From Centroscyllium fabricii (taxonomy: Eukaryota): a DNA stretch of 64,000 nucleotides. The stretch covers positions 372,001 to 436,000 of the forward strand of contig JBNRSN020000069.1 in assembly GCA_051313645.2 (NCBI GenBank). Direction: 5' to 3'. The notes under the pieces are model-generated. The model saw only the letters and a list, made by a program, of their open reading frames with translations. It was not told the DNA's origin and did no database searches. The position numbers and the translations under genes are program-made. Below, piece by piece: positions 2,738 through 58,675 of the stretch (positions are counted from its first letter, which is position 1; each line of letters starts with the position of its first letter).

Positions 2738-2963
2738 GATGTGGAGGTGCCGGTGTTGGACTGGGATGGACAAATGTAAGATGACACACAACACCAGGTT
2801 ATAGTCCAACAGTTTTATTTGAAATCACAAGCTTTCGGAGCATTGCTCCTTCATCAGGTGTCCTGATGAAGCACACCTGAGGAAGGAGCAGCGCTCCGAA
2901 AATTTGTGATTTCAAATAAAACTGTTGAACTATAACCTGGTGTTGTGTGACTTCTTACAATTG
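2738..2963. mobile_element. Penelope-like fold-back element, family A, with hammerhead cores
   Basis: Inverted arms; minus strand CTGATGA-A-GGAGC-aat-GCTCC-GAAA-GC-TT; TSD tcaaaaattgtg. Confidence 0.75.
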
Positions 2964-3619
2964 TCAAAAATTGTGGATCAAGGGAACCAATTTCACAATT
3001 CACCATATCAATGAGGATGTTGTTGAACATGAAGAAAAAAACATTTGAATCTGATATTTTCATTCATAGATCTTAACACACAAGTGCAAAATCTCCTCTG
3101 CAGACTGAACAATTGTCTCTGGTGAATTCTTGTGTGTTGCCACAACTCTGGCATAAGATTTTGAGATGTTATTAGATAGATGAGCTTCACATAAGGCACA
3201 AAAAACACTGAAAGTCACACAAAATTGTTCAGTTTCTGTATCCTTCCAAGAGTTGGGTTTATGAGTTGCTGTCATTCAGCTATAATTCCACTTGCTTTAA
3301 ATACAACTAGAACATCTCTTAATATTGTTTACTTTGTGTCCAGTAAATGTTCATGCTACACAAGCAGTTATAATCCTGAATGAACTTCCTCCATTTCAGA
3401 AGCTGTCACTTTCTCAATATTGGGTCACTTTCTTCCTTGCCACGTGCACATTGAACGTCTTCCAAAATCTTTTTTAGGAATTTTCTCAAACTGCAAACAG
3501 CTGCTCCTCTGAATGCCAGTTATACTGCAGGCACTGGTCTCAGACAGGTGGTCATATACTGCAGTCCGTAGTTGGCAGATTCGGGTGCCTGTGTAGCACT
3601 GGAGCTCTGAACAAGTCAG

Positions 3620-4135
3620 GCGTGTGATGGAATACTCTCCACTTGCCTGGATGAGTGCAGCTGCAACTATACTCAAGATGCCCGACACTATCCAGGACAA
3701 AGCAGCCCATTTGATTAGCAACCCATCCACCACCTTAAACATTCATTCCCTCCACCACCGGCGTACCGTGTGTATCATCTGCAAGATGCATTGCAGCAAC
3801 TTGCCAAGGCTTCTTCGGCAGCAACTCTCAAACCCGCGACCTCTTCCACCTAGAAGGACAAGGGCAGCAGGCGCATGGGAACACCACCACCTCCAAGTTC
3901 CCCTCCAAGTCACACACCATCCTGACTTAGAAGTATATCACCGATCCTTCATTGTCGCTGGGTCAAAATCCTGGAACTCCCTACCTAACAGCACTGTGGG
4001 AGTACCTTCACCACACGGACTGCAGCGGTTCAAGAAGGCGGCTCACCACCACCTTCTCAAGGGCAACTAGGAATGGGCAATAAATGCTGGCCTTGCCAGC
4101 GATGCCCACATCCCATAAACGAATTTAAAAAAAAC
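3620..4135 (+). mobile_element. CR1/L2-superfamily LINE 3' fragment
   Basis: MEYSPLAWMSAA..DTIQDKAA.LI...WNSLP...FKKAAHHHLLKGN*; tail gggcaataaatgctggcc and A-rich end. Confidence 0.85.
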
Positions 4136-4194
4136 ATGCTATTTGTACGTACCTTCACACGCTTCTGATTAGCAGTTGCATTTTATTATGAGAG

Positions 4195-4570
4195 GTGATG
4201 GGAGGGTCAGCTCTCCTGGTTAGGGTCGGCGAATAGTTGAGCCACAAATAACAACTTCGATCCCCAGTCTGTACTGAATTACCTGATCTCAGTTTAGACT
4301 GCAGTGGAAGGGGAAGGGGGTCTAAGTTAGTTTCAGTGTCCTGGGTTAGAGGGAAAATTTGGTCATCTGCATGAATACATTTGAGAGAACAGGATTGGAC
4401 TTGACCTTGCTATTTCCTCCCCCAACCCCTGCCTACAGTTAAACAGCTGCTGATATTCACGGTCTAGACTCACACATGATGACTGGTCAGTTGAGCGAGA
4501 TACCAGAGGTATAATCATCCCTTTGGAACCATATGCAGCCAAGGCATCAGGCGAGAAGGAGAGAACTAGG
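4195..4570 (+). mobile_element. Degraded ancient SINE-like repeat
   Basis: Motifs gatccccagtctgt..ctgatctcag and ctagactcacacatga..gagcgagatacc resemble an old chondrichthyan SINE body (recognition from memory only). Confidence 0.3.
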
Positions 4571-4770
4571 TGGAAAAGGAGGAAAGAAATTCCAAGCGGG
4601 TTCAACAGATAACTTGAGAACTTTTTAAACTTGGCTTTACAGCAAAATACAGTCAAATCCAAGTGACGTGAGGCCACCTTCAGGGGATAGTGCCAGAACA
4701 TTTACAATTAGTGCATTTCTCAGTCAGATTGTTGACCTGATTCAGATCACTAATTTTGTGCTAATGTGTA

Positions 4771-5905
4771 TGTCACAGGGTGCCTGTCCCTTTAAGAATT
4801 CAAAACAGTTTTGTTGTGTTTCACACCTGTTTTGAGGACTGGGTTCCCCTGTTATTCCATTATTTATTCTATTATCTGTGTCAATTGCTTGTTGTGTTCC
4901 TGTTCTCATTGCCTTCAGCTTATTGGCTAACACCAAATTGTATGTTGGCCGGTTTTGGTTGATAAGCTGGAGGTAGTGATGAGAGCAGGGCGGGATCATT
5001 GTAATGTATGAACTGGACTTCTATTACACATTCTACAAGCCACTGGAGGGAGTGGTTCTGCTTCTAGAGAGGCTATGGTTTTGGACTTTCCCTTGCCCGA
5101 TTGAGGACGGATTCCCTTTGGACCACTCGGCTAGGGTGAGACTAGCTGGAGCAGCTAGAGTGAGACTGGCTGTTGAGTAGTCTCCAGTGACTTTCTAGTT
5201 GTCATCTGTCGGGACATTGAGTTCAGCCACCGGCAGCACAGGCTGAGTTGCTTAAGAGGGGCAATGGGGTTGGAGCTCAGATCACTCTGCCTTGACATTG
5301 CGCCCTGCTATCTGGAACTCAGGCATGGACAGTTCATATGTTGAGTAAGGGCGTTCCCCTGCTTGTGGATCTGAATCTACTACTTGGACATTTGTTTCAT
5401 TTTCATCCGAACCCAGGTTTGGACATTTGATACCTGTTATGCAGAAGCTGTTCCCAAATCCTCTACGGGGAGTTGTATTGTGATGTCCTACTCGCAGAGG
5501 AGAACTTGTTCGTTTCTCTTAAAGCAGTTGGATTGTGATGTCCTGCTTATAGAGGAAGACTCGTTTAAGTTGGACAGTGATGCCTGGACTTGTATTCCTA
5601 GGGAAAATGACGCGCTTTGTTGCGTGGCACCCCTCTACCCATTTCTCACTATTTTGGGAAGTTTTGTGCCAGTCTTTAGTTAGACTTGTGTTTAATATGT
5701 GTACTATATATTTGTATGTTAATGCTATTCTATGTGGTTTTGTTATAAAGGAGTTTTGTTATAAAAGACGTTTCAGTGTCTCTGCATTTGGGCCCCGCCC
5801 GCATTCCGTTACACCAATCTGGTTACAGTGTATACTAAACCACTTCGCATCAATGTGGAAGTGATAGTGTAACTGGCCCATACACTCTGACCTGGGATTT
5901 GTACA
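4771..5905 (+). mobile_element. Possible solo LTR
   Basis: TG...CA ends, tgtccctttaagaa start motif and T-rich 3' part with ATAAAA; TSD not clear. Confidence 0.4.
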
Positions 5906-6394
5906 ATACAAAGGCTAATCTACTCCACATTTCGAGCCGGTTTTCTAAATTCCAACGCGCTATTCAATTTTTTATATGTCTATTAATTTTCTTAAACCTA
6001 TTCAAATATTTCTGATTATACCCAGTAATCGGGCCTACATTTTCCATCCAACCTTCTAAAAGTGTTTAAATTCCAGCTGCATTTTACAGTGAAATCACAC
6101 TCCACAAGTTTAACGCCAAAACACCTTCATACTGATGCTAAACTTGGGAGTGCAAATTGGATACGAAGGCCAATCTTGACTCCCAAACAAAGCATATTAC
6201 AACTCCCACCTCCAAGGAGTTTCACTCTGCGTTGGCCTGGTGTCAGGTTGGGTCCTGGCTCTGAATTCAATCTGCATTTACACTGTAACAGCAGCATCAG
6301 TATGAAGTGAAACCGATTCACACCAACGCTATGAATCTAATGTGAATGCAGCCTTAAATATAAAACAGGTTTTTACAATCTTTCTTTTTCTTCT

Positions 6395-6750
6395 AACACA
6401 GAAGATAGGAGCAGGAGTAGGCCATTCGGCCCTTCGAGCCTGCGCCGCCATTTTGATGAGATCATGGCTGATCATCCAAACACAGCACCCCCCTCCTACC
6501 CTCTCCCCATATCCCCCGACACCCCCAACTCTAAGAACTATATCTCACACACATACTCATGGGCAATTTTTAGCATCTCCAATTCACCTAACCTGCATGT
6601 CTTTGGGTGGTGGGAGGAAACCGGAGTACCCGGAGGAAACCCACACGAACACGGGGAGAAGATGCAAACTCCACACAGAGAGGTCCCGGGCCACGCAGGA
6701 TTCGAACCCAGGAGCTCCTTAGTGCGAGGCACTGCGCCACCGTGTCGTCC
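6395..6750 (-). mobile_element. V-SINE, second subfamily (tRNA head, V-domain, CR1 tail)
   Basis: B box ggttcgaatcc; V-domain gtgggtttcctccgggtactccggtttcctccc; near-identical to 10572-10940. Confidence 0.9.
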
Positions 6751-7239
6751 TTCTAAATGTAACAATAACAGAAATGTATACCTTGTACCATTTGCCTGCA
6801 GTCTTTTCCCATACATGAACCAGAACACATCGTTACAAACTCACAGGCCTGATCTTCGCAGTCTGAGAACTAATTAATTCTCCCAGAACATCCCAAAACT
6901 TTTGAGAATCTGTCCCCCCCATTACTTTGGGAAGTCATGCTGAAAGTTTTTAAGTGGTTGAACTGAAATTATAAACACAATTGCCTGAAGTGTTTTCACA
7001 TGTGAAACAGGTGGTTTCAATAATGCTTTCTAATTGACCAGTGGTCTTTAGTGAGTAATATTAGTCGGCAACAAAACACAACAATTGTCTACGCACATCA
7101 AAAACATACAGGAAAAAATGCTTTAAAAATGTAAAACCATTTTCTATTTCTGAAACATAGTTAGTTTTAGGGTGCAGTTGTAGTAGTTTTAGAGCTAGTT
7201 TGTATGTTGTTAACCTGACTGTTTTGGAATTGAGTGTAC

Positions 7240-7445
7240 TCTTTTGAGCAACCCATAAACAAATAAACTGTAACTTAACAAAAATACATTAAATGAAACT
7301 TAACAACTTAAATTAAAATTTGGTTGGCCGGGGTGATGAGTGCACTCCATTACCTGCGGTGCCCACCGGTCCCGGAAGACCTTGATTGTGCTGGTGGACA
7401 CCGCATGCTCCATCTCCAGGGCCCACCCAGAACTGAGAGTAGAGA
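7240..7445 (-). mobile_element. Tx1/L1-clade LINE 3' fragment
   Basis: ALEMEHAVSTSTIKVFRDRWAPQ resembles a Tx1 ORF2 C-terminus; T-rich tail. Confidence 0.5.
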
Positions 7446-7580
7446 GAGTTGTAAACCCAACTACCGTGGCCAGTTGTCGAATCCAATATGATGCCACAAA
7501 ATGCACCCTAAGGGTTACTATTAATGATTTTTGTCAGTGAGGATAATAATGTAACCTACCGTATTGAGTTGCGTTCAACA

Positions 7581-7950
7581 GGTGCAGTAGCATAGTGGTA
7601 ATGTCACTGGGTTAGTATCCCCGAGGCCTGGACTGATGATCCAAGAGACGTGAGTTCAAATCCCACCATAGCAACTGGAGAATTTAAATTCGGTTAATTA
7701 AATAAATCTGGAATAAAAAGCTAGTATCAGTAATAGTGACCATTGTCATAAAAACCCATCTGGTTCACTAATATCATTTAGGGAAGGAAATCTGCCATCC
7801 TTACCTAGTCTGGCCTGTATCTGACTCCATACCCACAGTAAGGTGGTTGACTCTTAACTGTCCCAGCAAGCCACTACCTTCTCAAGGGCAATTAGGGATG
7901 GGCAATAAATGCTGGCCTTGCCAGCGACACCCACATCCTGTGAATGAATA
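7581..7950 (+). mobile_element. tRNA-derived SINE sharing its 3' tail with the LINE at 3620-4135
   Basis: A box tagcatagtgg, B box gagttcaaatccc, tail cttctcaagggcaattagggatgggcaataaatgctggcc. Confidence 0.85.
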
Positions 7951-7974
7951 ACACAAAATTGGCTTGTTTTCTGT

Positions 7975-9170
7975 GTACCTGTCTACCATACCATTTTCTG
8001 AATGGCAATAGATTGGGAGAAGGGGAAGTGCAACAGGACCTGGGTGTCCTTGTGCACCAGTCGCTGAAGGTAAGCATGCAGGTGCAGCAGGCGGTGAAGA
8101 AAGCAAATGATGTGTGGGCGGCACGGTGGCATAGTGGTTAGCACTGTTGCCTCACAGCTCTGGAGACCCGGGTTCAAATCCAGCCTCGGGTACTATCTGT
8201 GTGGAGTTTGCACATTCTCCCCGTGTCTGCGTGGGTTTCCTCCGGGTGCTCCGGTTTCCTCCCACAGTCCAAAGATGTGCGGGTTAGGTTGATTGGCCAG
8301 GAGAAATTGACTCTTAGTGTTCGGGGGATTGAATATGTGGGGTTACGGGGATAGGGTGGGATATGTGTCGGTGCAGGCTCGATAGGGATTGAAGGATATG
8401 GGGAGAGGGCAGGGGCGGGGTACTGAGTTTGGATGATCAGCCATGATCTCATTGAATGGCGGAGCAGGCTCGAAAGGCCGAATGGCCCACTCCTGCTCCT
8501 ATCGTCTATGTTTCTATGTTTCTATGTTTCATAGCGAGAGGGTTTGAGTACAGGAACAAGGATGTCCTGCTGCACTTGTACAGGGCCTTGGTGAGACCAC
8601 ACCTTGAGTACTGTGTGCAGTTTTGGTCGTCTTATCTGAGGAAGGATGTTCTTGCCATGGAAGGAGTTCAGCGAAGATTCGCAAGGCTGATACCCGGGAT
8701 GGCAGGAATGACGTATGAAGAGAGATTATGTCGATTGGGCTTATACTCGCTGGAGTTTAGAAGAATGAGAGGGGATCTCATCGAAACTTGTAAAATTCTG
8801 ACAAGTTTGGACAGACTAGATGCAGGAAGGATGTTCCCGATGGCGGGAGAGTCCAGAACCAGGGGTCATAGTCTAAAGATAATGGGTAAGCCATTTAGGA
8901 CAGAGATGAGGAAGAATTTCTTCGTCCAGAGAGTGGTGAACCTGTGGAACTCTCTACCACAGAATGTAGCTGAGGCCAAGTCATTGAATATATTCAAGAA
9001 GGAGTTAGATATATTTCTTAGAGCTGAAGGGATCAAGGGATATGGGGAGAAGGCAGGTACGGGGTACTGAGTTTGGATGATCAGCCATGATCTCATTGAA
9101 TGGCGGAGCAGGCTCGAGAGGCCGAATGGCCTACTCCTGCTCCTATCTTCTATGTTTCTATGTTTTTGTG
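7975..9170 (+). mobile_element. CR1 LINE 3' fragment interrupted by an HE1 SINE
   Basis: LYRALVRPHLEYCVQFWS...RRMRGDLIE; (tctatgtt)n tail. Confidence 0.92.
8116..8530 (+). mobile_element. HE1-type V-SINE, full length
   Basis: ggcggcacggtggc head, ggttcaaatcc B box, V-domain, CR1-derived tail. Confidence 0.93.
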
Positions 9171-9364
9171 TCTGTGATACATCTATATTAAATATTTTTT
9201 CTTCTGTAGAGTTTCAATAATTTGTACCTAACGATTGGCGTGCCAAAATTACAAATGGAATTACAAGTGATCAGATAAGTCAAACCCTCACATACTGCTT
9301 GAAATAAAGACATTTTATCCATAACCGGCAACTGAGTCGAATTTCTTGGTAGTCTGACAACCAT

Positions 9365-9590
9365 AAAACAAAAAGATGCTGGAAATCTGAAATCAAAACA
9401 AAAAGTGCTGGAAACACTCAGCAGGTCAAACAGCATCTGTGATGAAAGGAAGGCGGAGTTAACGTTTCAGATCGACGCCCAAATCAGTTCTGATGAAGGG
9501 TCATTGACCTGAAATCTTAACCCTACCTTACTCTCTCCACAGAGTCTGACTAACCTGCTGAGTGTTTCCAGAATTTGCTGTTTGTATTCT
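9365..9590. mobile_element. Penelope-like fold-back element, family B
   Basis: Arm gctggaaa..ctcagcagg..cagcatctgtg and its inverse; CTGATGA-A-GGGTC-att-GACCT-GAAA core. Confidence 0.7.
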
Positions 9591-11634: not shown

Positions 11635-11861
11635 AAAGGCTAGAAGGTTTTTTTTTGCACAAAGGGTGATTAGAATTTGGTTGCATGGATCAACAGTCGA
11701 AGAGGCAAAATATTAAAGGGTATGGAGAAAAAACAGGTAAAGTAGATCCTGTTGATATGGAAATAACATTGGTACAGGCACACCAGGCCCAATGGCCTCC
11801 TTTTGTGCTGAAATTTATGATTAGGTTACAACCAAAATCTTTGGTGGAACATAAACTCTAT

Positions 11862-38182: not shown

Positions 38183-38574
38183 TATGTTTAAATAGCAAGT
38201 CAGTCTGCGGGACAATGTGGGCCAAACAGTGTGAGGGCGTGAACTCTGATCATCGCTTCATTTAAATAAACCAGTTTGGGTCATTTAGTGAAACCAGCAG
38301 ATACAATAAGAGATGAATGAATGGCGAGTGTACATGAGTGTCGAGTTCAGCAGCAGGAGAAGAACAAGTAACACTATTGGCGAGAAGGTGAAGTGGTCCT
38401 TGAACTGTTTACACAATTAATTAGCTTCCCCCCCCCCCCCACCCCCCCGAAAAACATTAGGACGGCTCGCAAATAAACAACGCTGTGAGGCAATTAGATG
38501 CCCCATTAACAAACAGCAGCAACCGAAAGGTTAAAACAAAAAAGAGTTGTGTGGGCAATAACTGGTGTTGAAGA

Positions 38575-38765
38575 TGGCAAAATACTGCAAATCCTAAATA
38601 ACACCAGAAAATGCCAGAAAAACTCAGCAGGCCAGGCAACATCCGTGGAGAGAGAAACAGAGTCAACGTTTCTTGACAAAGGGTCTGAACCCGAAACGTT
38701 GACTCTGTTTCTCTCTCCACGGATGTTGCCTGGCCTGCTGAGTTATTCCAGCATTTTCTTTTGTT
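38575..38765. mobile_element. Penelope-like fold-back element, family B
   Basis: Near-perfect inverted arms around aagggtctgaacccgaaacgtt. Confidence 0.7.
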
Positions 38766-40557
38766 ATAACTGCTCTGGAATAACTCGCAGAAAGGGGAGA
38801 ACGGGAAGGTGCTTCTCCCGCTGTCTCCTTTTCTGAACCGCAGTCCTCATGTTCTCGTTAACTTGCCCCATACAGTCTGGATTTCACAAGGAGATTGTAT
38901 TCATGCCCAATGGCCTTGCAAACTCGTGCTAACTGTAGTAAATATAATCACAGTAAATGTCGTTACTATAGTGGGCGTTCTCTTTCTGTATTAGCCCAAT
39001 AGCTCGGCACCTTAACCAAGAATCTTTTGAAGAAAGTAGTTGCAAGTTTTAAACGGGATAGATAGCATTGCAAAGAGACGCGAGATTGCACGTCAATCAA
39101 CTTGCAATCATCAATATGAAAGCCTTTGCGGGTTTACCGCACATAAATACTAAAGGATGCGCAGCTATAACTAAATCGAAAACTTGAGTCCTTCAATCAA
39201 TAACAGGGAGTAATATATTTCAGCTTTTCACACTGTTGCGCCAAACAATTCAATGCTTTTTGAAAGGGGTTTAGTCACAACAGACAAACTTGCAGTGATA
39301 TCTGGATATTCATTTTTCCATGCTAGTGCAACGTCATTTTAGATCACAATGAAGCATATTTTCATAAAGCACTGGGTTCGTTATTGTTTTTTCAGAGGAA
39401 TACACAGCTCATCTCCTGAGTTGCTTCACTCCCCATTTCTGAGCTGGCGCCCTCTCTCAGCCAATGCAGACCAGTGGTCATCTCACCCCAGTTACCGCGC
39501 AGACATGCAGTCGAACTCCTCCTTCAAAGTACCGCAATCGCTCTTATCAAATAATGAAACAGCTCTTACATAATACCACCAGCTACTGCACATCTGGCAG
39601 TGAGAGTGGCAGAGCGTTTCTGCTGCAACTCAGTGAGAAGCAGGGGTTTGAACCTATTCACAGCCCCCAACTGCTATATTTAATTAGCCTTATAGCTTGT
39701 TCGGTGACATCAAACATTCAAAAGTTCGAATGTTCGACTATCTTTTACTGCCCCCCCCCCCCATTACTCATTGAGTAAATAACGTATTGTGAAAATCGGA
39801 AACGACTAAACATCGAACTTTGGCATTTATGTAATCGCTACCAAGGACACTCGAATGCCAGCCGTGTTCTACCCCACCCCCTTACAATTCAGAATATCTT
39901 TTCAAGCCCCATCGCCATTCTGCTAGCAATGAACATCAGCCCCTGGGACAATAATATTATATTCGAAGACAACACATCAGCAAGTTGATTGAGGCGAATG
40001 TCTGAAGAATTGTAGAACATTCTAAATGGCTAAGGAACTGTAAAACATTTAGTTCCTAAGTGCTAATAAAATCTTAACATCGCAGATCGCTAATAAACAG
40101 TATCATAATTAATGATAGAATTTCAGAACTAAATAAAACACTGCTCAGGTCTTAGTACAAATAGATTAGCTCAGAACCCGCTTTTTAAACAGATTTGAGA
40201 CAGTACTGACTATTGACAGTACTGTATAAATATTTCTGCATTTTTTTTTTCAGTTGACTGAACGCATTTTATTACATATTTTGTCTAATGACTAAAGGCA
40301 TTAGACACAATCTTTATGAAACCGGCTTCCATAACTAATATGGCCCACTAAAAAAAGAAAGCCCACCTACATTTGGACCCCACTGGTTCACGTAAATAGC
40401 TCAATAACCGTTGATTTACTGCAAAATGTACTTTTCAAATCTTTACATGGGAATGCTGGTGTATCGAAGGCGGCTGATACACTTCAGAAAATATTACAGA
40501 GCGGCTGGATTCACACACATACTCCCAACAATCCCGAACAGCTTTATATTAGAATGT

Positions 40558-40648
40558 GGACACTTCACCTGAGGAAGGAGCAGCTGCTCCGAAAGCTTGT
40601 GATTTAAAATAAAACTGTTGGACGATAACCTGGTGTTGTGTGACTTCG
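40558..40648 (+). mobile_element. Penelope-like family A single arm with intact hammerhead core
   Basis: tcac-CTGAGGA-A-GGAGC-agct-GCTCC-GAAA-GC-TT-gtga; 17-bp TSD agctttatattagaatg. Confidence 0.75.
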
Positions 40649-43414
40649 AGCTTTATATTAGAATGGCCTTTAGCCGAGGAACAGAGAAAATATATATAAC
40701 TAAGCATCATATTTGCAAGTTGCGAATGCAATATAAGACAATGGAATTAATATGACTGGAAGGTAATGCTCTGCCAGTTTTATATGCATAAATAGGATAG
40801 TGTTAGGTTTTTCAACAGTAAGTTGGAGGCGATGGTCTATTTTATTCAGATTTGCATGGCACGGCACATTATCTTAATGAGTTGGTTTGGTAATCTCAGT
40901 TCACGAAGACGGTAGCCTAACATTTGCATATTTATCAATAATATATTTGTAATAGTTTCAGAGAAATCCGCCTCGATTAAACTAAATTGTTGTATTTTAA
41001 TGAACCTGACCAAATGAACAAGGCACTGCGGAAATTGCACATTCGGGATGGTCATTAAGCCAGTGCACCTACTCTTCGACCGACGCGCTGTATAATTTGT
41101 GCACTGAACGCTCAAATTCTCTGAAAGATATGAAATATTAAAAGCTGGAATCTACACGTCACTTCCTGCTTTTTTATAACCATTCAGAAAAAGTTTGCAA
41201 GGTTGTGGTTTCTGCAGCCAAACGAAATAGAATTCATGAATTACATTTATTGAAACATCCAAAAATGCTCAATCCTCGATCTTCAGTCACCAGGAACAGC
41301 CAGGACCTGCTCCTCAGTTTACGCACAGTTTGAGCTCATTTTTGTCAAAAGTTTCTCATTTCAAATCGCCAAAATCTTACTTGATTGGGGGGAAATTGCA
41401 ATAAAAACTGCTTAACGTCACATGCCTGTTTCTTTACACTTCCATCCCAGCTCACATCCAAATATATTCTCAGTTCAACACTTTTTTAAAATCTCTCCCC
41501 CACCCACCTCCTCCCAGCCCGGATGTTGCCATCTCTTTGCAAGGGTTGAACGCGGCGCCCTGTCTCCCCCCCACGTCCTTGAACAGAAGTGTGATTCTGC
41601 AGCCTCTCGGCGCCCCGGCCCTCGCAGGCTTTCGGAACTGGTCCGCAGGTCCTCTCCAAAACCCAGCGGGGGTGCCCCCGTGTCACCGGGACACTGCAGC
41701 CGAGGGTTATTGATAACCGTGTCCCTTGGATTTGCCCATTCTGACTTTAACGGTGCATACAGATATACTCACCGAAATCCGTGCCAAAAAAAGGGCACAT
41801 TTGTAGCATTTCGTGACATGTTGCAGCTCATAAAACGTCCACAGACAGCCAAAATCTCGTACATGCCCCAAGCAAAATATATCTGCATAATTTCAATTGG
41901 AAGATCTGCTGCTCAGCTCCTGTACCATTTTTTGAACTTTTTTTTTGGGGGGGTGGGGGTGATGCTTAAAATGGAATAGTTTGTCAGCAGGCAGATGATC
42001 GCTTGTCCGGGGTGGGGGTTGGGGGGGGGGGGGGGTCGCCTACAGTCAGCCGGAGAATGAGACCATTCGGTCTCCGGGCCAAAGGTAATCTCCAGTCCCC
42101 CTTTGGCCCATCCTTGGGAGTTGAGCAGAAAGATCAGAGACCCCCTCTCCCTCCGACCCCCCACTCGCCCCCTCCACTCCACCCCATTCCTCTCCGTCTG
42201 GCTTTTCCCCCAAAACGGTTCGCCGGGAAAAAAAACTAAAAGCCTCCATCCCTGGCCGCGGGGGCAGGCAGCTCGTGTTTCGGCCAGTATATCCTCGCAT
42301 TTGGAAATGCTGCTTGCATTTGAATAGCGCTGGCTTGTTATGTATCTCGATGGCATGAAAAGAGAATCAGTATGCAAATTGCTTCAGTTACAATCGAAAG
42401 GTTCGATCTGAAGTGGACGCTCACGGAAGTGGATGTCAGCTATCTCTGCATTAGCCGAGATAGATCTGCCCAGTGATGCAGCGAGTTAAAAATTCTTGTT
42501 AATTAAAACAACGAGCGAGCTTGCAACATGACTGCTCTCGCCCTCCCCCCGTGATCAGCCCCTTTAACACAATTATTATTCTGCAGGTGTTATTTGATGG
42601 CTTGTAATGAGTGTTTGTGCAATCCCACCAGGCTAAGTGCTTGCAGTGAGGACCTGGGCACCAGCTTCAGATCACAGAGCCCCCCCCCCCCCCCCCCCCT
42701 ACACCGCAGTCTCCACATCCAAGCGTTTACCGATCAATACATGCAAGGAATTAACTTGGAGAAAGAGAGATGTGTAGCTGCGGTTTAACGGTGTATCCCA
42801 GGCAAATATATAGATAGCACCGTCTTACGTCAGTTCTACCTGGATCACCCGCTGATACCCGGGGTAAAAGAAAGATGGTTTTGATTGCGGTAACGTGCTG
42901 TCTGTTCCGACTGCTATAGGTTAAAACTGCCCCTCTTTTGACCCTTCTCGCTGCAAAGCTAGACATGATCTGACATTCCAGCTGTAATATCGGTGGGCTT
43001 GGGCAGAAGACAAGCGGGCGGACGTTTGAAGGGTTATCATTAATGGTGATTTTGGATTTGTTTTGTCATTTTTAGGAATGAAGATTTTTTTTTAGATCTG
43101 AAAGCACAATGTAAACCCCCGGCCGCTGCCGTGTCTCTCACCGAAAGTGATATTTAATTGATCCACCTTCTTTAAAATCGCATTGGCTCGGCTCCCAGGG
43201 CCATTAATACCCAAACCGCGCCTCACAACAGCTTCCCAGAGATGCGCCGTGTTTTGAATGGGACCAGATGACCGGGGCTTTCAGCGAAAACAACCCGGGC
43301 AGCACCAAGCCTAAAAAAACAACATATTTAACAGAAACTTTTCGATTCTGAACTCACCTTTTGCGGATATTAATCCACAAGCTGGCCTACAGTTCCCTAT
43401 CCTTTGAAATACAT

Positions 43415-43680
43415 AATGTGGAGGTGCCGGTGTTGGACTGGGGTGGACAAATGCAAGAAGTCACACAACACCAGGTTATAGTCCAACAGTTTTATTTTAA
43501 ATCACAAGCTTTCGGAGCTTCTACCCCTTCGTCAAGTGAAAGAGAGACTGACTTAAAGAACGCACATACGTGCGTTCTTTAAGTCAGTCTCTCTTTCACC
43601 TGACGAAGGGGCAAAAGCTCCGAAAGCTTGTGATTTAAAATAAAACTGTTGGACTATAATCTGGTGTTGTGTGACTTCTT
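43415..43680. mobile_element. Penelope-like family A fold-back (about 110-bp arms, 4-nt loop)
   Basis: Hairpin centred on gaacgcac-atac-gtgcgttc; hammerhead at 43600-43629; TSD ctttgaaataca. Confidence 0.8.
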
Positions 43681-45286
43681 TGAAATACAGTTGTTGGTTT
43701 AGATAGACAGTAAAATTATTGGACAATATATATAAAAATAGATATCCACCCTGCAGTGATTTGTGAAATGTGCAATTGTCAGCAAGTTCCTTCTATGTTC
43801 TCTTTCAAGTTTCAGATTTCTTTTATTCAGCCCATTTTGTGTTTTAATGCTGAGCAAATCTTCATTTGGCGTGGAACCTTGCGCAGTGGTGCGCCGTGCT
43901 TACAATGTTGTAGCAGAATAGCAGAGCGCCGACTTCCATTCGACTTGTCTAATTGATCAGGGAGAATTCTTCAAACCCCTGCCGTGTATCTATTGACAGC
44001 TGACTTTATTCATACGGGACGTGCTTAGCTGACAGTCCCCCCCCCCCCCCCAGTATGCGTCTCCGATTTGCCCACGCCACCAAAATCATTTGGGCTATAC
44101 ACCTTAGCAACCTTGCAATCCATTTTGCTTCTAATAAAACGGGAATCTAATTCATTTGGAACATAACGCAAACCAATTGATGGGGGTGGGAGAGGGGCCC
44201 CTTTGCAGTGAGGCTGATTTTGACAGGGGAGCGGTCAAGGTGCTTTGCTGTCTCTGTGATGATCTTCCGGGCTCGCTTGCTGCAGAAGAAGCTTACGGCT
44301 AGTCTAAGCTGACCATCTGTCATTCAATTAACGTTTCAAGGCAGCTGATCTGTAACCAGGAGGGTCAGCGACCCTAGGACAAACCCAATGCTGCCAGAGA
44401 AAAGGCGACAAAGTTCAAATGTTAAACGCCCGGCACTTTACAGAATGTGGACAGCCCAGGAAATTTGCCTATGTGAAGCTTGCATCGAGGTCTCCCCGGA
44501 GTCAACACCCAGATTTCGATTTAAAGATGTCGGCATACTTACAGCATTTTCTTCTGAAAACCCCCCAAACACTCTTAGCGAACAATAGAATTAACAGGGG
44601 CTGGGATTTGCTCAATGTCACGTTTGAAGTTGTATCAGTTCTTCTGGAGATGGGAGTAGATTTGAGCAAAATTCTTCCCCCCTCCCCCTCGTTACTGTAA
44701 AGTTACGCAAATTTCTTTTGAGGTGATTTCTTACTGCAGGGATATTCTAAAGCGACTGGAAATTAATGAAAGTGACTCCATTGATTTGTCAGTAAGCGGC
44801 ACAATTTACCGCCACCTCATCATAATCATAATTCATAACCCCCTCCCATTCATGATTACATTTTCGGAATTTCCAATTTCTCATTCTATAAATCCCAAGC
44901 AGTCAAACTTACCCGGAATATGAAACAACGCCTTGAATAGCGAGAATTTTGATTACAGTTTGCAACTTGGCTATGTTGGTATCGTAAATTCATGCTTGGA
45001 ATGTCATCCTATACACAATTTAAAAAAATCAGATATTCTCTATCTCTTAAAATGTACACACAGACTATAGAAATGCAGCTCTAATGAGTTATCTAAAGGT
45101 TTCACTCGGAAGACAGGACAAATTGAGCCTCACTATGCTAATTTAACCATTATAAATATTTCACTAGCGTCCTCATTGGAGCAGGTATGATTGGGCTCCT
45201 TTCTAAACACGTGTAATCTGTAGCCACAGTTCATCTGCATCCCTGTACTTTGAGGAACGTTCGCTTCTATCTAGATTTGTTCGAGA

Positions 45287-45662
45287 AACATGGAAGATAG
45301 GAGCAGGAGTAGGCCATTCAGCCCTTCGAGCCTGCTCCACCATTCAATGAGATCATGGCTGATCACCCAAACCCAGCACCCCGCCCCTGCCCTGTCCCCA
45401 TATCCCTCAATCCCTATCAAGCCTCCATCAACACATATCCCACCCTAACCCCGTAACCCCACATATTCAACCCCCCTAACACTAAGGGTCCATTTATCCT
45501 GGCCAATCAACCTAACCCGCACATCTTTGGACTGTGGGAGGAAACCGGAGCACCCGGAGGAAACCCACGCAGACACGGGGAGAATGTGCAAACTCCACAC
45601 AGATAGTACCCGAGGCTGGATTTGAACCCGGGTCTCCAGTGCTGTGAGGCAACAATGCCACC
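45287..45662 (-). mobile_element. HE1-type V-SINE
   Basis: Matches other HE1 copies. Confidence 0.92.
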
Positions 45663-50585: not shown

Positions 50586-50980
50586 ATAGAAACATAGAAG
50601 CAGGAATAGGCCATTCGGCCCTTCGAGCCTGCTCCACCATTAAATGAGATCATGGCTGATCATCCAAACCCAGTATCCTGTCCCTGTCCCGTCCCCATAT
50701 CCCTCGATCCCTATCAAGCCTGCACCGACACATATCCCACCCTATCCCCGTAACCCCACATATTTAATCCCCCTAACACTAAGGGTCAATTTATCATGGC
50801 CAATCAACCTAACCCGCACATCTTTGGACTGTGGGAGGGAACCGGAGCACCCGGAGGAAACCCACGCAGACACGGGGAGAACGTGCAAACTCCACACAGA
50901 TAGTACCCGAGGCTGGATTTGAACCCTGGTCTCCAGTGCTGTGAGACAACAGTGCTAACCACTATGCCACCGTGCTGCCC
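50586..50980 (-). mobile_element. HE1-type V-SINE
   Basis: Matches other HE1 copies. Confidence 0.92.
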
Positions 50981-51485
50981 TTTAAAGATTGTGAAAAAAA
51001 ATTACTGTAATTTTTTTTTATGAGCTTTAAATTTCTTACGATTTGAAAAATTCATCTAATTCCCCTATGCTGACTAATAAAAATCACTAAAATTATTAAT
51101 GTCTGAGTCTGAAACTTCTATTCCTAGGCAGCTAATGGGCACAATATGATGTCCTAAAAACTGAAAATGTATTATTTAGAATCTTGAAGAAAGAGATGAA
51201 CAATTTCATTAAATTTGAGTGAGTTATAGCTTGCATAATATGGATAAGATTGACTACTTTCCACTAAATCAGTTGGTATAATATTTGCTGTTAGAACTGG
51301 AAGATTATTGCTCACTAATGTCTCAACTGGACAGCACCAAGCAGTGCAGTATCAATGGATTTTTGAAAGTGATGTGAATGGGCAGTCAAGTTGTTTGGTT
51401 GCATCACACCTGGTGAGATGATAGCAGTCCATGCATAAGTAGTTAAGTGCTCACAGACCTCAATCCGCCAGGGAAATATATACTA

Positions 51486-51967
51486 CAGGTCCGACACCAT
51501 TAATCCAGCATGGTTGGGACCAGGCCGGTGCCAGATTAGTGAAAAATCTGAATGATTGAAGCTTCAGCGAGCGCATGCGCAGACCATCCAAAATGGCCAC
51601 CACGAAGGCCGGTGGCCATTTTGAATGATCTGCGCATGTGCTCGCCGAAGCATTAATCGTTCGAGGAGAGGCCCGGGCATGCGCAGCCAAGCACGGCGGC
51701 CATTTTGCGCATGTGCAGCCAAGCGCGGTGGCCATTTTGCACATCCGTAGATCAGTCGGGCAGTTGGAGAGAGGCCCGGGCATGTGCAGCCAAGCGCGGT
51801 GGCCATTTTGCGCATCCGTAGATCAGTCGGGCAGTTGGAGAGAGGCCCGGGCATGTGCAGCCAAGCGCGGTAGCCATTTTGCGCATGCGCAGACCAGTCG
51901 GCCAGATTCATTCTGGACAACTGAAGTTTCTGGATTACTGGTGTCCGGATTAACGGTGCTCAACCTG
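51486..51967. mobile_element. Tigger/pogo-like MITE with an internal 71-bp tandem repeat
   Basis: TA|caggtccgacaccattaatcc ... ggattaacggtgctcaacctg|TA (imperfect TIR, TA TSD). Confidence 0.7.
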
Positions 51968-51986
51968 TACTACATACTGCACATAC

Positions 51987-53054: not shown

Positions 53055-53990
53055 GACAGAAGTAGGCCATTCAGCCCTCGACTCTGCTCCGCTATTCAAT
53101 TAGATCGTAGCTAATCCACACCTAAACTCCATTTACTCATATTTGCTCCATTTCTCTTGATACCCTTATCAAACAAAAATATGTCTATCTCAGTCAAGAA
53201 AACTCGAATCGTCCCAGCATCCACAGCCTTTTGGGGGAGAGAGTTCCGGATTTCCACTACCCTTTGTGTGATGAAGTGTCTCCTGATTTAGCTCCTGAAT
53301 GGCCTGGTTATAAATCTTATGATCCATGAGGAATGACTCATGAAATAACACTGGACGGCCAGCTGGTGGCACCATCCAAGGAGTATAAATACTCGGGCGT
53401 GGGCCCAGCTTGCCCAGGGACATTTTGGAAACAGGAACTAGTGAACGATAACTAGACCTCCATGTTTTTGAAACAAGTTGATTAAAGCCTTGCTTTATGC
53501 TCAAACCAAGTGCGTAGTGAGTTTTCGTACATCAGGCCTAACTCTAATTTTAATATTATGTCCCTTTGTTCTTGATCATGTGGGTTTCCTCCGGGTACTC
53601 CGGTTTCCTCCCACCACCCAAAGACATGCAGGTTAGGTGAATTGGAGATACTAAAAATTGCCCATGAGTATGTGTGTGAGATATAGTTCTTAGAGTTGGA
53701 GGTGCCGGGGGATATGGGGAGAGGGTAGGAGGGGGGTGCTGGATTTGGATGATCAGCCATGATCTCATCAAAATGGCAGAGCAGGCTCGAAGGGCCAAAA
53801 GGCCGACTCCTGCTCCTATCTTCTGTGTTTCTGTGATCTACCCTACCCGAGGAAATAATTTGTCTGCATCAGCCCTATCAAATTCTTTTAACATTTGTAA
53901 CAGATCAATTAGTTCACCCCTCAGTCTTCTATACCCAAAGGAATACAAGCCACGTTTATGCAACCTGTCCTCTTAATTCCACCCTCAAAG
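53055..53990 (-). mobile_element. Degraded CR1 3' fragment with a nested LTR and a 5'-truncated V-SINE (53578-53835, plus strand)
   Basis: gaacatgg/gaacatga tail; CR1 sequence resumes after each insertion. Confidence 0.75.
53305..53534 (+). mobile_element. Solo LTR
   Basis: TG...CA ends, TATAAATA, ATTAAA, 4-bp TSD GGCC inside CR1. Confidence 0.75.
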
Positions 53991-54205
53991 CCCAGCTGCA
54001 CAGTCACCTTTTCCAGTTGGTCTTCTTACTGATATCAAACCTCTGATTGCTGAGAAATCAGCATGGCTATCATTGGCTGGATGATACTGCATGGATCTCA
54101 TTGGGTAGCATGGAAATGACACACTGATTTGATGCCAAACATTCAGCATAATTGGGGAACAAATGAATCTACTTCCTCAGTTAGCACACTTCTTCCTTCA
54201 CAGGT

Positions 54206-54605
54206 CGGCTCGGTGGCTTAGTGGTTAGGACTGTTGCCTCACAGCACTGGAGACCCGGGTTCAAATCCAGCCTCGGGTACTATCTGTGTGGAGTTTGCAC
54301 ATTCTCCCCGTGTCTGCGTGGGTTTCCGCCGGGTGCTCCGGTTTCCTCCCACAGTCCAAAGATGTACGGGTTAGGTTGATTGGCCATGATAAATTGACCC
54401 TTAGTGTTAGGGGGATTGAATATGTGGGGTTACGGAGATAGGGTGGGATATGTGTCGGTGCAGGCTCGATAGGGATATGGGGGGAGGGCAGGGACAGGGT
54501 ACTGGGTTTGGATGATCAGCCATGATCTCATTGAATGGCGGAGCAGGCTCGAAGGGCCGAATGGCCTACTCCTGCTCCTATCTTCTATGTTTCTATTTTC
54601 TATGT
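54206..54605 (+). mobile_element. HE1-type V-SINE
   Basis: Full head, V-domain and tail. Confidence 0.92.
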
Positions 54606-55204
54606 AATCGTGACCACATTAATACAACATTTTGGATCTGAATTATAACAATGGTGTATTAATGTGGTCGCAATTACCTGTGAAGGAAGAAGTATGCTGA
54701 AACAAGAATAACAAATGCATTTACAGAGAATGCGGATTTTCAGCTTAAATAAACTCGAGGATGTGGAGCATCAAGTATATGTAGAGTTTTTGTACTAATT
54801 GGTTCTTCTGCCACGCCTATCACAGATGCCTTTATGTGTGGCTGGGTTTCGGCCTCTGTTACTTCCAGTTGCCAGGTTGTAAAGGACAATTACTCTAGTG
54901 CAATAGTAATGGATACAGAATACACTCCATTTCCCAAGATGCAACATTGGCCTTGGAGCTGCAGTTTCCTGGTAACCCAGAAAATTCCTGCTGGTATGCT
55001 GAACCGATGTGCTATTGATTAGCAAAATGATGAATGGTGAGTAATAGAATTCCTTATCTAGGTTCAGGCAGGAAAGAGCAATGACATACAGAAATGTTGT
55101 ATCTGCATACTTCTATAGGCTCACAGCCTGGAACCGAGTCTACTGCCCATTGTCTGCTTTAACACAGATTACAGAGAAATATATCTGCAGATTTTCCATA
55201 CAGT

Positions 55205-56017
55205 GGGGGGTATTTTCATGTCCCCGTGAGGCGGGGTTTTTGGCGGCCCGGCCTGCAAAATAGCGGGAGCAACGGGTCCCGCCGCTCCCTGCCGGATCCC
55301 CGCCGCTTTCTCAATTTCGCCCGCCCAGATTCCCCGCCCCGAAACCTTCCCGCCGCCGACCGGCTGGGATGGGTTGTCACCTCGTTAAGGGCCCCTAATT
55401 GGCATCTTTAATGCCATTTTAAGGGCCCGCAGCCATTTTGCCCTGTTTTTCGCCCTAACCCCGTCACCTTAAACCCCGCGAGCACAGCGCTGGTCATTAC
55501 TTTTGGACTATAACCTGGTGTTGTGTGACTTCTTAAATTTATTACTTTCTTCTTTAAGGTGTGAAGGACATGCTGCCAAATGCTTGGCATATCTCCAACA
55601 CTTTAGAGGAGTAAGTAACTCTGTTCTGGCTTCAGCAGCAGCTGTTAGCAGAAACTGAGCAATCTCAGTTCTGCACAGTTCCTGACAGCTGCTGCGAGCT
55701 GTGAGGGATTCTGAGCCCGCCTGCCCACCTGTCAATCACCAGCACTTGGCCTTTCCCATTGGCTCCACTCCACTGTGATGTCACAGTGGAGTGTTTCCAT
55801 GGGAACTGACAACAACCAGTGCTGGAACTGTCAATCAAAGTGCTAGCAGCCCCCTGCAGCCGACTAGATTGATCTAATTACCTCCCGCTGTCGTCGATGG
55901 GGATTTAACAACCTAATTAAACTAAAATTGCATGGGCTTCCCAGGTCTTTCGGCAGGCAGGACCGGAAGCCGCCCAGACCAATCCCCGCCAGGTTTCCAT
56001 CCGGCAAAATCCCCCCC
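55205..56017. mobile_element. Harbinger-like MITE, same family as 1872-2665
   Basis: TIR gggggg(t)atttt / aaaatccccccc; TSD AGT; shared internal palindrome cactccactgtga(c/t)(a/g)tcacagtg. Confidence 0.75.
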
Positions 56018-56164
56018 AGTGCGTCTGTGAATCACCTTTATTTAATTAACGATTATGTTTTATATTTGTCAAATAAAAAAAAATGAATCTAGATTCATTA
56101 TTTCAAGGTACCCATGTTAACATTAGGACTGTAGTTGGCAGTTGTACAATTTCTTTTTAAAAGA

Positions 56165-56570
56165 CAACAACCGCTTGCATTTATATAGCGCCTTTAATGT
56201 AGTAAATCAGCCTAAGGTGCTTCACAGGAGCGTTATCAGACAGAATTTGAAACCGAGACACATGAGATATTCGAACAGGTGGACAAAGCTTGGCCAAAGA
56301 GGTGGGTTTTAAGGAGCGTCTTAAAGGAGGAGAGCCAGGCGGGGAGGTTCAGGGGGGATAATTCCAGGGCTCAGGGGCCCAGGCAGCTGAAGGCCTGGCC
56401 ACCAATGGTGGGAGTGATGAAAATCGAGGATGCACAAGAGGCCAGAATTGGAGGGGCGCAGAGTTCTTGGAGGGTTGTGGGGCTGGAGGAGGTTGCAGAG
56501 ATAGGGAGGGGCGGGGCCACGGAGAGATTTGAACAGACGGCTGAGAATTTTAAATTCCAGGCATTGCTGA
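56165..56570 (-). mobile_element. L2 LINE 3' fragment
   Basis: FKIL..LFKSLRGPAPPYLCNLLQP...LRPSNSG; tail ggcgctatataaatgcaag. Confidence 0.85.
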
Positions 56571-58489
56571 AAAGTACAGTAATCTGTGACGGTATTTAAT
56601 CTTGCTGGCACAAACACTCGGTGGCGGAGGCATCACAGTGCACACTAATAGCTGACACCAAATTAAAGTGCTCGAGTTGCTGTGATGTAACTCGGCCATC
56701 CTTTGACACATGTTGATGTGAATGCCGGACTGGCTACGGTAAACTCATCAGTGACAGGTTGTGACGGTGACGCATCAACTTTACACATCTGTCTGTCTCT
56801 TCAAAGTTGTCAGCGTCGGGAAAGCTTTGAATGACTGCAGTGACGGTAAATAGATCTCAAGCCTGCAGATGCCCGACTCTGAAATCATGGGATCCTTTTC
56901 CACCTTCGGTCAATTGACACATTCAGCTTAAGTATGTAATTAGTAATGCATAGATTAAAAGACAGAGAATAACACACAGCAGATAGCTAAAAAAAGGTAA
57001 ACCTGGCATGCGGAAAGTGCTTTGAAACAAAACGCACAAACTGTAAGGGCGTGAGTTTAGAATTTTCAATAAATATAAATATTTGTTGGCCACGCTTTTA
57101 GTAACAAATGGCAAGAAGTAGTTTTAATTTATAAATCATAATGTCACCTAAACAAAAAATCAATGCCATGTTTTAAGAGTGTTGCTGACTACAGTGTTAA
57201 CATTTAAGAAAAAAAAAATCACTGAACTGAAATTAAACCAAAGCCAGGCTAGACATGGTTTTGTGGGTTGTGAACAGGTACACAGTAATTTTAAGTATTT
57301 GTTGGAGCTGAGGCCTGTCATTTGAGACGTGATAAGAAATAATTTGTAATAAGAGAGCTACCTTCTTCAATTGTCTTCTGCTGAAGTGGAGAGTCCCAGT
57401 AATGATTTATTGCCCTGCTGCTTGTCTGCTGATAACTGGTCACCAAATGGCTCCTCATTACTCAAACCTCCTTCATTCCCTATAACCAAAATCTTTTCCC
57501 ATTAGTCCAGTTTTGTTCAGGGGAAATGAATGTAAGACATTCCAGTGTAAGCCCATAAACTATTTTAGTATATCTATATATATATAAAAAAGTCATAAAT
57601 AATGGGAGAAAATCTTGTTTGCCACGGCTGCTGGATCAACTGCCTCTTGGCCTTTTGATAGCATCTTTGAAATGGAAATGTCCAGCTGCCTGACCTTCTG
57701 TTCAATGACCCTTTTGTACAAAGTCAAATCACCATGGCTTCTCCGCAGCCCAATCACAGCAATTCACCTGATGGATACTTTATGCCGTTAATACCATTTA
57801 CAAAAAAAAAAATATCTAGAATATTCTACCTTCAATGATTTCATGCTTGCTCACATTGAAAGAGCTAAAATTCAATAGGACAGAAAAATGAACACGTGGA
57901 AAATCATGTTAAATGGGTACTTTTGCAATCTCCGATTAAACGTAATTCTATGGATCATAGAAACAACCACTCAAGTGGTAGAGAATTAAATGCAACTTGT
58001 AACAAGTATACCCAGCGCAGTGCGATCTTCTGCCGAGTCATGATATTGGGCCCTGTTTTCCTGTGCTCCAGAGGAGCTGCACACTCACGAAGGGGGGTCA
58101 GAAATGCCCCGTGGGGGTGTAGCACGGGGGATGCCCACGAACGGTAATTTCCTGTGCTGATGGGCAAGGCCTGTCAGCTTCCAACGCAGGAAGACCTTGC
58201 ACTGACGATTTCCTGTCAGAACGGTGATTTTTGGAGAGTGATTCCGTGTGCAACTGGCTCACAAGCTGCACACAGAAAAACTAGTAGTAAGAGGGAGAAG
58301 ATTTAGTTACTGAAGAATGTTACAGTAAATTTGCTGCACACATTTTGCAATAGCGACTTTATTGGTGTTTGTACAAGGTTTTCAGTGTCCATTAATATAC
58401 CCTGTGTGAAACCCATTGACTACCTGCAGAAGGAGTTCACAGATAATTCGTCATTATGGAAATGAGGTTGTTAAATGCCTCCCACAGAT

Positions 58490-58675
58490 ACAAAAAGAAA
58501 ACACTGCAGATGCTGGAAATCTGAAATAAAAACAGAAAATTCTGGACAAACTCAGCAGGTCAGACAGCATCTGTGAAGAGAGAAACAGAGTTAACGTTTC
58601 AGGTCGATGACCGAAAGGTTTCTTCACAGATGCTGCCTGACCTGCTGAGTATCTCCAGCATTTTCTGGTTTTATT
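58490..58675. mobile_element. Penelope-like fold-back element, family B
   Basis: ctcagcaggtcagacagcatctgtgaaga and its inverse; TSD-like tgtt(a/g)aatgcc. Confidence 0.7.

What the first reader, a model, noticed from the sequence alone, without database searches (positions are those of the whole stretch)
2738..58675. Two families of hammerhead-ribozyme-bearing fold-back insertions (Penelope-like), about 14 copies in 64 kb
Seen: family A (2738, 28096, 31380, 37608, 40558, 43415, plus a fragment at 55503) and family B (9365, 15805, 23310, 27005, 31055, 38575, 58490) look unrelated in sequence, yet both carry CTGANGA-A-[stem II]-GAAA-NN-TT inside a short stem I. The core is intact in several copies and degenerate or partial in others. 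Stem II covaries (GGGGC/GCCCC, GGAGC/GCTCC, GGGTC/GACCT, AGGTC/GACCT), and stem III is a palindrome (AAGCTT or AACGTT). Most copies are asymmetric inverted dyads with one complete arm and one variably truncated arm, many have 11-17 bp TSDs, and none has an ORF. Known: minimal type-I hammerheads with palindromic stem III occur in Penelope-like element termini and are thought to act as dimers. Inference: these are very abundant non-autonomous ribozyme retroelements mobilised by a Penelope-type RT/GIY-YIG enzyme, easily mistaken for MITEs and probably poorly described in this lineage.
Basis: partly seen in the sequence, partly recalled or inferred. Interest (0 to 1): 0.72.

Follow-up and report, generated by a model that had tools for sequence, protein, structure and literature searches.

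The report
Truncated shark Penelope ends, two families
These short mirror-image repeats are the cut-off ends of two very common Penelope-type jumping genes in a shark-like genome, each carrying a known kind of small, predicted self-cutting RNA; the layout is already described, but the exact ends suggest each pair is likely copied from both sides of the DNA cut.

Summary
The repeats are real: 13 independent insertions (10 head-to-head pairs, 3 single arms) plus one passenger fragment; 9 of 13 have 12-17 bp target duplications. They are not a separate non-autonomous family. Longer genomic copies run from the same arm into a 3'UTR, a GIY-YIG endonuclease and a reverse transcriptase. Family A has intact 890-aa elements in partial tandem; family B is a second family (30% protein identity). 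Both have the Neptune/Nematis-type linker. Inverted truncated partner, one-sided 35-nt tail and minimal hammerhead are published Penelope-like element features, and this scan has noted the same thing many times in this and other genomes. Ribozyme activity is untested, and within pairs the motif is predicted to be folded shut.

The parts
2739..2963 (.). Family A dyad; left arm (-) with tail, right arm (+) without; both cores intact; TSD 12 bp (2727-2738 / 2964-2975)
9360..9588 (.). Family B dyad, diverged; left arm (-) with worn tail, right arm (+) tail-less with core but altered stem III; no TSD found; left edge approximate
15782..15979 (.). Family B dyad; left arm (-) with an internally deleted tail (read by eye) and an insertion in stem III; TSD 13 bp, 1 mismatch
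23304..23555 (.). Family B1 dyad; right arm (+) with tail and intact hammerhead at 23423-23460; left arm lacks the 5' strand of stem I; no TSD found
26990..27107 (+). Family B2 single tail-less arm; hammerhead with U3-A8 core, C-G first pair of stem I and GUC site; no TSD found
28099..28231 (+). Family A single arm with tail and intact hammerhead (28106-28143); TSD 12 bp, 1 mismatch; 95% identical to the terminal repeat of intact elements L093 and L094
31053..31309 (.). Family B2-type dyad, both arms cut short of the core, about 95 unrelated bases in the centre; TSD 14 bp
31380..31539 (.). Family A dyad without a complete core; TSD 12 bp; ends about 40 bases from the splice donor of the host gene
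37608..38182 (.). Family A dyad whose left (tail) arm is split by a later insertion of another repeat at about 37667-38066; TSD 12 bp
38569..38767 (.). Family B dyad; left arm with tail, right arm B2-type (U3-A8 core, stem I cut); no TSD found
40557..40648 (+). Family A single tail-less arm with intact hammerhead; TSD 17 bp
43414..43677 (.). Family A dyad, near-symmetric; left arm with tail (U3.G8 core), right arm with intact hammerhead; TSD 12 bp
55499..55540 (+). 42-bp family A fragment carried inside another repeat; not an independent insertion
   Evidence: same flanks in L037, L047
58480..58677 (.). Family B dyad, both arms cut short of a full core; left arm with tail; TSD 12 bp, 1 mismatch

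Best explanation
The 13 insertions are 5'-truncated 3' ends (end of the 3'UTR, minimal hammerhead motif, optional 35-nt tail) of two autonomous Penelope-like retrotransposon families of this genome, and the head-to-head pairs are likely made by reverse transcription primed from both nicks of one staggered cut. Shown: identity of the arms with the ends of RT plus GIY-YIG elements, two fixed 3' end points, duplications of mostly 12-13 bp, one tail per pair. Inferred: the enzyme, probably a dimer, nicks both strands 12-13 bases apart; one 3'-OH anneals by 1-5 bases at the tail end of a read-through element RNA, the other about 35 nt upstream; both cDNAs usually stop early and are joined head to head, often at a self-complementary spot; usually both come from one source element, sometimes from two. 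The hammerhead is predicted to work only in tandem transcripts of full elements; in the stubs it is a passenger. Odds: identity as truncated element ends 0.97; dual priming 0.6.
For: Extension of genomic copies into GIY-YIG and RT frames. Intact family A: L094 has a 769-bp repeat pair 98% identical around an 890-aa ORF whose ATG follows the tail directly; L096 and L097 add an inverted 5' copy. Family B frames up to 776 aa with RT and endonuclease; A against B 30% identity. Pfam RVT_1 E 6e-10 for A; GIY-YIG E 6e-4 for B, below the curated cut-off. TSD of 11 bp or more in 47 of 74 candidate pairs against 1 of 300 swapped flanks; 30 of 44 are 12-13 bp; 44 of 44 TSD-bounded pairs have a tail on exactly one arm. 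In 800 kb taken at fixed grid positions, 17 of 18 pairs have one tail and 1 is unclear. Single arms with a TSD occur with either end (tail-less: 40558, L122, L144, L155), so the inner end point is itself used for joining to the target. Microhomology averages 1.9 nt at both outer junctions against 0.5-0.6 in 2000 shuffles (family A; 23 and 17 of 27 pairs scorable). In 12 of 36 clean pairs the tail-less arm reaches more than 25 nt further 5' than the tail arm; 4 of 56 pairs have a tail arm of only 22-38 nt. 6 of 27 family A pairs differ at 3-4 of 8 polymorphic sites, and L027 joins two different 3'UTR subfamilies inside one 13-bp TSD. In vitro, the anole element cuts and extends both strands and starts at two sites that bound the tail (PMC11167929).
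Against: 19 of 36 pairs are symmetric within 25 nt and arm lengths correlate (rho 0.46), as fold-back predicts; 424 pairs are centred at or beside the stem III palindrome. Arms are far more alike than random pairs (0.18 against 0.42 in A, 0.11 against 0.45 in B). Asymmetry could come from later deletion at the centre of unstable palindromes, and mixed arms from gene conversion. Of all 74 candidate pairs, 4 had two tails and 4 none (none of these 8 among the 44 with a TSD). Many loci were fetched with tail-bearing queries, which biases the tail side. PMC11167929 saw no difference in start site between the two strands in vitro, which does not explain a strict one-of-each rule. No intact family B ORF was found among 102 scored matches. 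Clade placement rests on motifs, not on a tree.
Confidence: 0.6

Rival explanations
1. Same elements, but the inverted arm is made by fold-back: one cDNA (or an antisense template, as proposed in PMC3846280) primes on itself at a palindrome, copies itself and is cut or stopped about 35 nt short of the tail; unequal arms come from later central deletions.
For: 19 of 36 pairs symmetric; joints favour palindromes; most arm pairs share private variants; published proposals of self-priming (PMC3846280) and of endonuclease-mediated resolution for the tail (PMC8557442).
Against: Tail-less single arms with a TSD; arms from two subfamilies in one TSD (L027; 6 of 27 pairs with 3-4 of 8 differing sites, some of them symmetric); tail arms of 22-38 nt beside tail-less arms of 220-1045 nt.
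Confidence: 0.3
2. One reading: a distinct non-autonomous ribozyme retroelement (retrozyme-like) with its own short master copies, spread in trans and dependent on hammerhead cleavage.
For: No ORF in any window copy; short copies dominate; retrozymes derive from these terminal repeats (bioRxiv 10.64898/2026.07.22.740005); the fold is conserved by compensatory change.
Against: 5' ends are spread from under 40 nt to over 2 kb and run into the ORF; each dyad has its own centre; no tandem arrays among the window copies; sense and antisense arms pair into one hairpin of -145 to -198 kcal/mol. Short ORF-less masters for a minority of copies were not excluded.
Confidence: 0.08
3. MITEs of a DNA transposon, with the hammerhead look being chance.
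For: Short, non-coding, inverted repeats, direct-repeat flanks.
Against: Arms are the ends of RT plus GIY-YIG elements; TSD length varies 11-17; the ends are unequal; 0 of 100 shuffles give the motif.
Confidence: 0.01

Closest known systems
Endonuclease-containing Penelope-like elements with inverted 5'-truncated copy, pLTR and one-sided 30-40 bp tail (Craig et al. 2021, PMC8557442, passages and sections 3 and 15; Arkhipova et al. 2013, PMC3846280, passages and Discussion; D. virilis Penelope, PMC2377424, passages)
   Same: Single RT plus C-terminal GIY-YIG ORF of about 890 aa, partial tandems, inverted partner, tail at one end only, TSD, heavy 5' truncation.
   Different: Here most copies are only the last 100-300 nt; TSD peaks at 12-13 bp (8-10 bp in the rotifer examples) and no microsatellite target is evident among the 44 TSDs listed; copy number is about 0.5 million.
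[quoted passage not shown]
   Same: Short stem I, extra base before stem II, palindromic stem III, families with compensatory changes; a U3-A8 core variant is reported there for Schistosoma.
   Different: Sharks are not named in the text I read (supplements not seen). Exact family A motifs number 126,135, against about 4,000 in coelacanth and 9,000 in Xenopus in that paper (different methods; this genome is 7.2 Gb). B1 has A-U or G.U, not G-C, at 10.1-11.1.
PAc (Poseidon of Anolis) in vitro system (Frangieh et al. 2024, PMC11167929, parts 1-2 of 4 read)
   Same: Two internal start sites bounding the tail; both strands cut and extended; hammerhead near the ORF start.
   Different: PAc is of the Penelope/Poseidon clade and its ORF starts inside the ribozyme; here the ATG follows the tail. 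That paper does not, in the parts read, link the two sites to inverted pairs.
Animal non-LTR retrozymes (bioRxiv 10.64898/2026.07.22.740005, parts 1-3 of 5 read)
   Same: Non-coding, hammerhead-bearing, derived from PLE terminal repeats; one cartilaginous fish was surveyed.
   Different: Retrozymes are defined by head-to-tail tandem units; these copies are single or head-to-head.
L1 twin priming (recalled, no call)
   Same: Both nicks prime cDNA and give a 5' inversion inside one TSD.
   Different: In L1 the two pieces cover different parts of the RNA; here they duplicate the same stretch and start at two fixed sites.

Membership tests
EN+ Penelope-like element | Single ORF with RT and C-terminal GIY-YIG endonuclease linked to the repeat | tested here: met
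   A: 890-aa ORF, RVT_1 E 6e-10, DKG and YIDD motifs, VYLIxC..YIGE; B: up to 776 aa, GIY-YIG E 6e-4 (below cut-off), same motifs; relatives carry PF00078, PF26215 and often PF01541
EN+ Penelope-like element | Partial tandem forming pLTRs | tested here: met
   L094, L096, L097: repeat pairs 98-99% identical; shown for A only
EN+ Penelope-like element | Inverted 5'-truncated copy and 30-40 bp tail at one end | tested here: met
   44 of 44 TSD-bounded pairs; 17 of 18 in the grid sample
EN+ Penelope-like element | CCHH motif with two cysteines between GIY and YIG | tested here: met
   Two cysteines inside the core in both proteins; downstream histidines present but not aligned to references
Neptune clade | CX2-5CxxC linker before the endonuclease (shared with Nematis, absent in Penelope/Poseidon; PMC8557442) | tested here: met
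   C-X4-C-X2-C at A 752 and B 642
Neptune clade | RT phylogeny with reference Neptune elements | not tested
   No named reference sequences were in hand; Neptune rather than Nematis is inferred from the vertebrate host
Minimal type-I hammerhead of PLEs | Core CUGANGA/GAAA/UH with stems I and II, extra base after A9, palindromic stem III | tested here: met
   129 of 138 A arms and 121 of 153 B arms parse; compensatory changes at 3-8, 2.1-1.1, 10.1-11.1 and A stem II pair 3
Minimal type-I hammerhead of PLEs | G10.1-C11.1 pair | tested here: inconclusive
   Met in A (121 of 128) and B2 (33 of 42); B1 has A-U (49) or G.U (11) of 65
Minimal type-I hammerhead of PLEs | Self-cleavage as a dimer | not testable with these tools
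   No raw RNA reads were available
Rfam hammerhead families | Covariance-model match | tested here: not met
   No hammerhead hit at E up to 1 in the window or up to 10 at 28060-28200
Non-LTR retrozyme | Head-to-tail tandem units each with a hammerhead | tested here: not met
   Window copies are single or head-to-head
MITE | Equal terminal inverted repeats, fixed TSD, transposase partner | tested here: not met
   Unequal ends, TSD 11-17 bp, RT partner

The most novel reading that the evidence does not exclude
Penelope-like elements integrate by an asymmetric double priming: a dimer uses the tail-end start site at one nick and the inner start site at the other nick 12-13 bases away, which explains the inverted repeat, the one-sided tail and the TSD in one step, and can draw on two different RNAs. 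In the same genome the ribozyme core switched from C3-G8 to U3-A8 twice in active lineages, which would be in vivo evidence that the catalytic fold is under selection in a vertebrate element, with more than 100,000 intact motifs as a test set.
Probability: 0.45. Interest if true: 0.6.

Novelty: new member of a known kind. Interest (0 to 1): 0.3.

Why it matters
As sequence features these are ordinary dead stubs of a known class of retrotransposon. Their value is as data. How these elements form inverted repeats and tails, and what their hammerheads do, are stated as open in PMC8557442 and PMC11167929, and about half a million insertions with clean junctions allow a direct count-based test. For annotation, such stubs should be filed as Penelope-like, not as MITEs or microRNA hairpins (Rfam's best sub-threshold hits on them are miRNA models).

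Tried and rejected
Rfam scans: no hammerhead model matched. Pfam on the 372-aa C-terminal piece of A: no family. RNA runs: no RNA holder listed; four contig sets guessed as RNA were laid and cannot show starts, ends or cleavage. Idea that 5' ends pile up at the predicted cleavage site (lead e1-9162017): 4 family A arms start exactly there in the 1.06-Mb unselected set, but the genome-wide pattern finds 424 pairs of which 36 of the first 50 listed keep the whole stem III palindrome at the centre (counted by eye), so palindrome joining and cleavage are confounded; no control pattern at another offset was run. First structure string for the pair count was out of register and was redone; that alignment has only 12 hand-picked rows, and the changes are a few lineage events, not 13 independent ones. 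No TSD could be found for 4 of 13 window copies. No full-length intact family B ORF among 8 long copies fetched. Literature searches that found no description of these families in sharks or of dual priming in these elements; the library lacks most subscription papers and Repbase/Dfam, Arkhipova 2006 was not seen, and supplements of the papers read were not opened (those of PMC4209133 and the bioRxiv preprint may list shark motifs). Look-up of earlier notes by sequence and for the U3-A8 variant returned nothing.
Full report
Observation. All 14 cited sites hold family A or family B sequence. Thirteen are independent insertions: 10 head-to-head pairs and 3 single arms. The piece at 55503 has the same flanks at L037 and L047, so it travels inside another repeat. 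Target duplications of 12-17 bp flank 9 of the 13. A minimal hammerhead descriptor hits 6 places in the window and none in 100 shuffles. Rfam's hammerhead models do not match.

Setting. The window is C1255:372001-436000 of a 7.21-Gb assembly. The closest named proteins to the family A enzyme are from sharks (89%, 84%, 80% identity), so the host is inferred to be an elasmobranch. The window holds a gene with a CUT domain and a homeodomain exon, read as a ONECUT gene from recalled features; five insertions lie in its 10-kb intron.

What the arms belong to. Searching the genome with each arm gave copies with a fixed 3' end and variable 5' ends. The longer ones run into a 3'UTR, a GIY-YIG endonuclease and a reverse transcriptase. 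For family A, 110 matches were scored and several lie in frames of about 900 codons; eight were fetched. L094 is a partial tandem: a 769-bp truncated copy, then an 890-aa ORF whose ATG follows the tail, then the 3'UTR and the same end, 98% identical. L096 and L097 also carry an inverted 5' copy. Four window arms are 90-95% identical to these ends. Family B leads to a second element, 30% identical in protein, with frames up to 776 aa but no intact ORF among 8 long copies; it looks older. Both have the C-X4-C-X2-C linker that PMC8557442 gives for Neptune and Nematis. No tree was built.

Abundance. In 800 kb taken at fixed grid positions there are 57 insertions (28 A, 29 B), which scales to about 510,000 (Poisson range 390,000-670,000). 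Exact patterns count 126,135 family A hammerhead motifs, 14,568 on the B1 stem II and 5,770 on the B2 stem II. The window is about three times denser than the grid (13 against 4.5 expected, P 7e-4 before allowing for selection of the window) and the 200 kb beside it hold 10.

The ribozyme motif. Among arms that reach it, 129 of 138 (A) and 121 of 153 (B) parse as a minimal hammerhead (loci partly chosen by similarity). The third pair of A's stem II is G.U, A-U or G-C in 126 of 128. Family B has a subfamily, B2, with the same endonuclease and changes at three pairs: C3-G8 to U3-A8, U-A to C-G or U.G in stem I, and A-U to G-C at the base of stem II. In the first 100 genomic rows on the B2 stem II, 86 are U3-A8, 10 U3.G8, 3 C3.A8 and 1 C3-G8. 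On the B1 stem II, 78 are C3-G8, 13 U3-A8, 7 C3.A8 and 2 U3.G8 (Fisher P 1e-9; rows counted by eye and not independent events). The 13 have a different base at position 7, so the switch probably happened twice, though recombination could give the same picture. Against strict constraint, a U3.G8 form spread to 10% of B2-type rows. A U3-A8 variant is already reported for Schistosoma (PMC4209133). Cleavage is untested. In a pair the two motifs are on opposite strands, and three window pairs fold into single hairpins of -145 to -198 kcal/mol, so the stubs are predicted to be inert.

How the pairs form. The layout itself is published: an inverted 5'-truncated copy and a 30-40 bp tail at one end (PMC8557442, PMC3846280). 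Of 74 candidate pairs, 63 have one tail, 4 two, 4 none, 3 unclear; all 44 with a duplication of 11 bp or more have exactly one, and 30 of the 44 duplications are 12-13 bp. Many of these loci came from tail-bearing queries, but the grid sample agrees (17 of 18, 1 unclear). Single arms with a duplication end at either point. Both outer junctions show about 1.9 nt of microhomology against 0.5-0.6 by shuffling. Of 36 pairs with a clean centre (8 of 44 dropped for a gap or overlap over 40 nt), 19 are symmetric, 12 have the tail-less arm reaching further and 5 the tail arm. Arms usually share alleles, but 6 of 27 family A pairs differ at 3-4 of 8 polymorphic sites, and L027 joins two UTR subfamilies within one duplication. 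I read this as priming from both nicks at the two start sites that PMC11167929 mapped in vitro for the anole element, and put it at 0.6. Fold-back with later central deletion or conversion explains the symmetric half and the palindromic centres as well, and stays at 0.3.

Earlier notes. I reached this reading before opening the scan's notes. They show 269 similar findings in at least 17 genomes and 17 in this genome, including the twin-priming idea and mismatched arms. They are not independent support. None mentioned the U3-A8 switch under the words I searched.

Verdict. A correct catch of a known thing: new shark members of the Penelope-like elements, in a published layout. Interest 0.3, from the scale, the core switch and the testable insertion model.

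Noticed in passing
window 21114-21408 and 31581-32610 (-): Two coding exons of a CUT plus homeodomain gene (likely ONECUT). Five of the insertions lie in its 10-kb intron; the three intact hammerheads there (23427, 27007, 28110) are all antisense to the host transcript, and one insertion ends about 40 bases from the splice donor. Numbers are too small to call selection.
   Followed up: partly
window 1-64000 against L161-L268: Insertion density in the window is about three times the grid average and four times that of the flanking 200 kb; unexplained.
   Followed up: partly
window 27007-27043; L132-L160; U3-A8 hammerhead core on two different stem II backgrounds of family B, plus a U3.G8 form in about 10% of B2-type rows.
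   Followed up: yes
window 55423-55560; L037, L047; also L094:6963-7004: A 42-bp family A fragment is fixed inside another dispersed repeat of unknown class.
   Followed up: partly
window 37667-38066 and e.g. 8116-8527, 22175-22496, 45284-45658, 50591-50987, 54196-54606: Abundant SINE-like and CR1-like repeats (labels recalled); one copy split the 37608 pair. RT fragments at 61040-61797.
   Followed up: no
L102, L146, L158, L160: Pairs whose tail arm is only 22-38 nt, i.e. ends about where the other arm starts; would fit two primers on one RNA molecule.
   Followed up: partly
window 51571-51641 and 59756-60706: A 71-bp hairpin unrelated to families A and B, and a perfect 309-bp inverted repeat of LINE-like sequence with a 333-bp spacer.
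   Followed up: no
L032 and L033: Two loci 2.3 Mb apart on one contig are 99% identical over at least 1.6 kb: a recent duplication or an assembly repeat; L033 was left out of the counts.
   Followed up: no
family B arm, e.g. window 23462-23540: Between hammerhead and tail lies a pyrimidine-rich stretch that resembles an intron 3' end; these elements are known to keep 5'UTR introns. Not tested.
   Followed up: no
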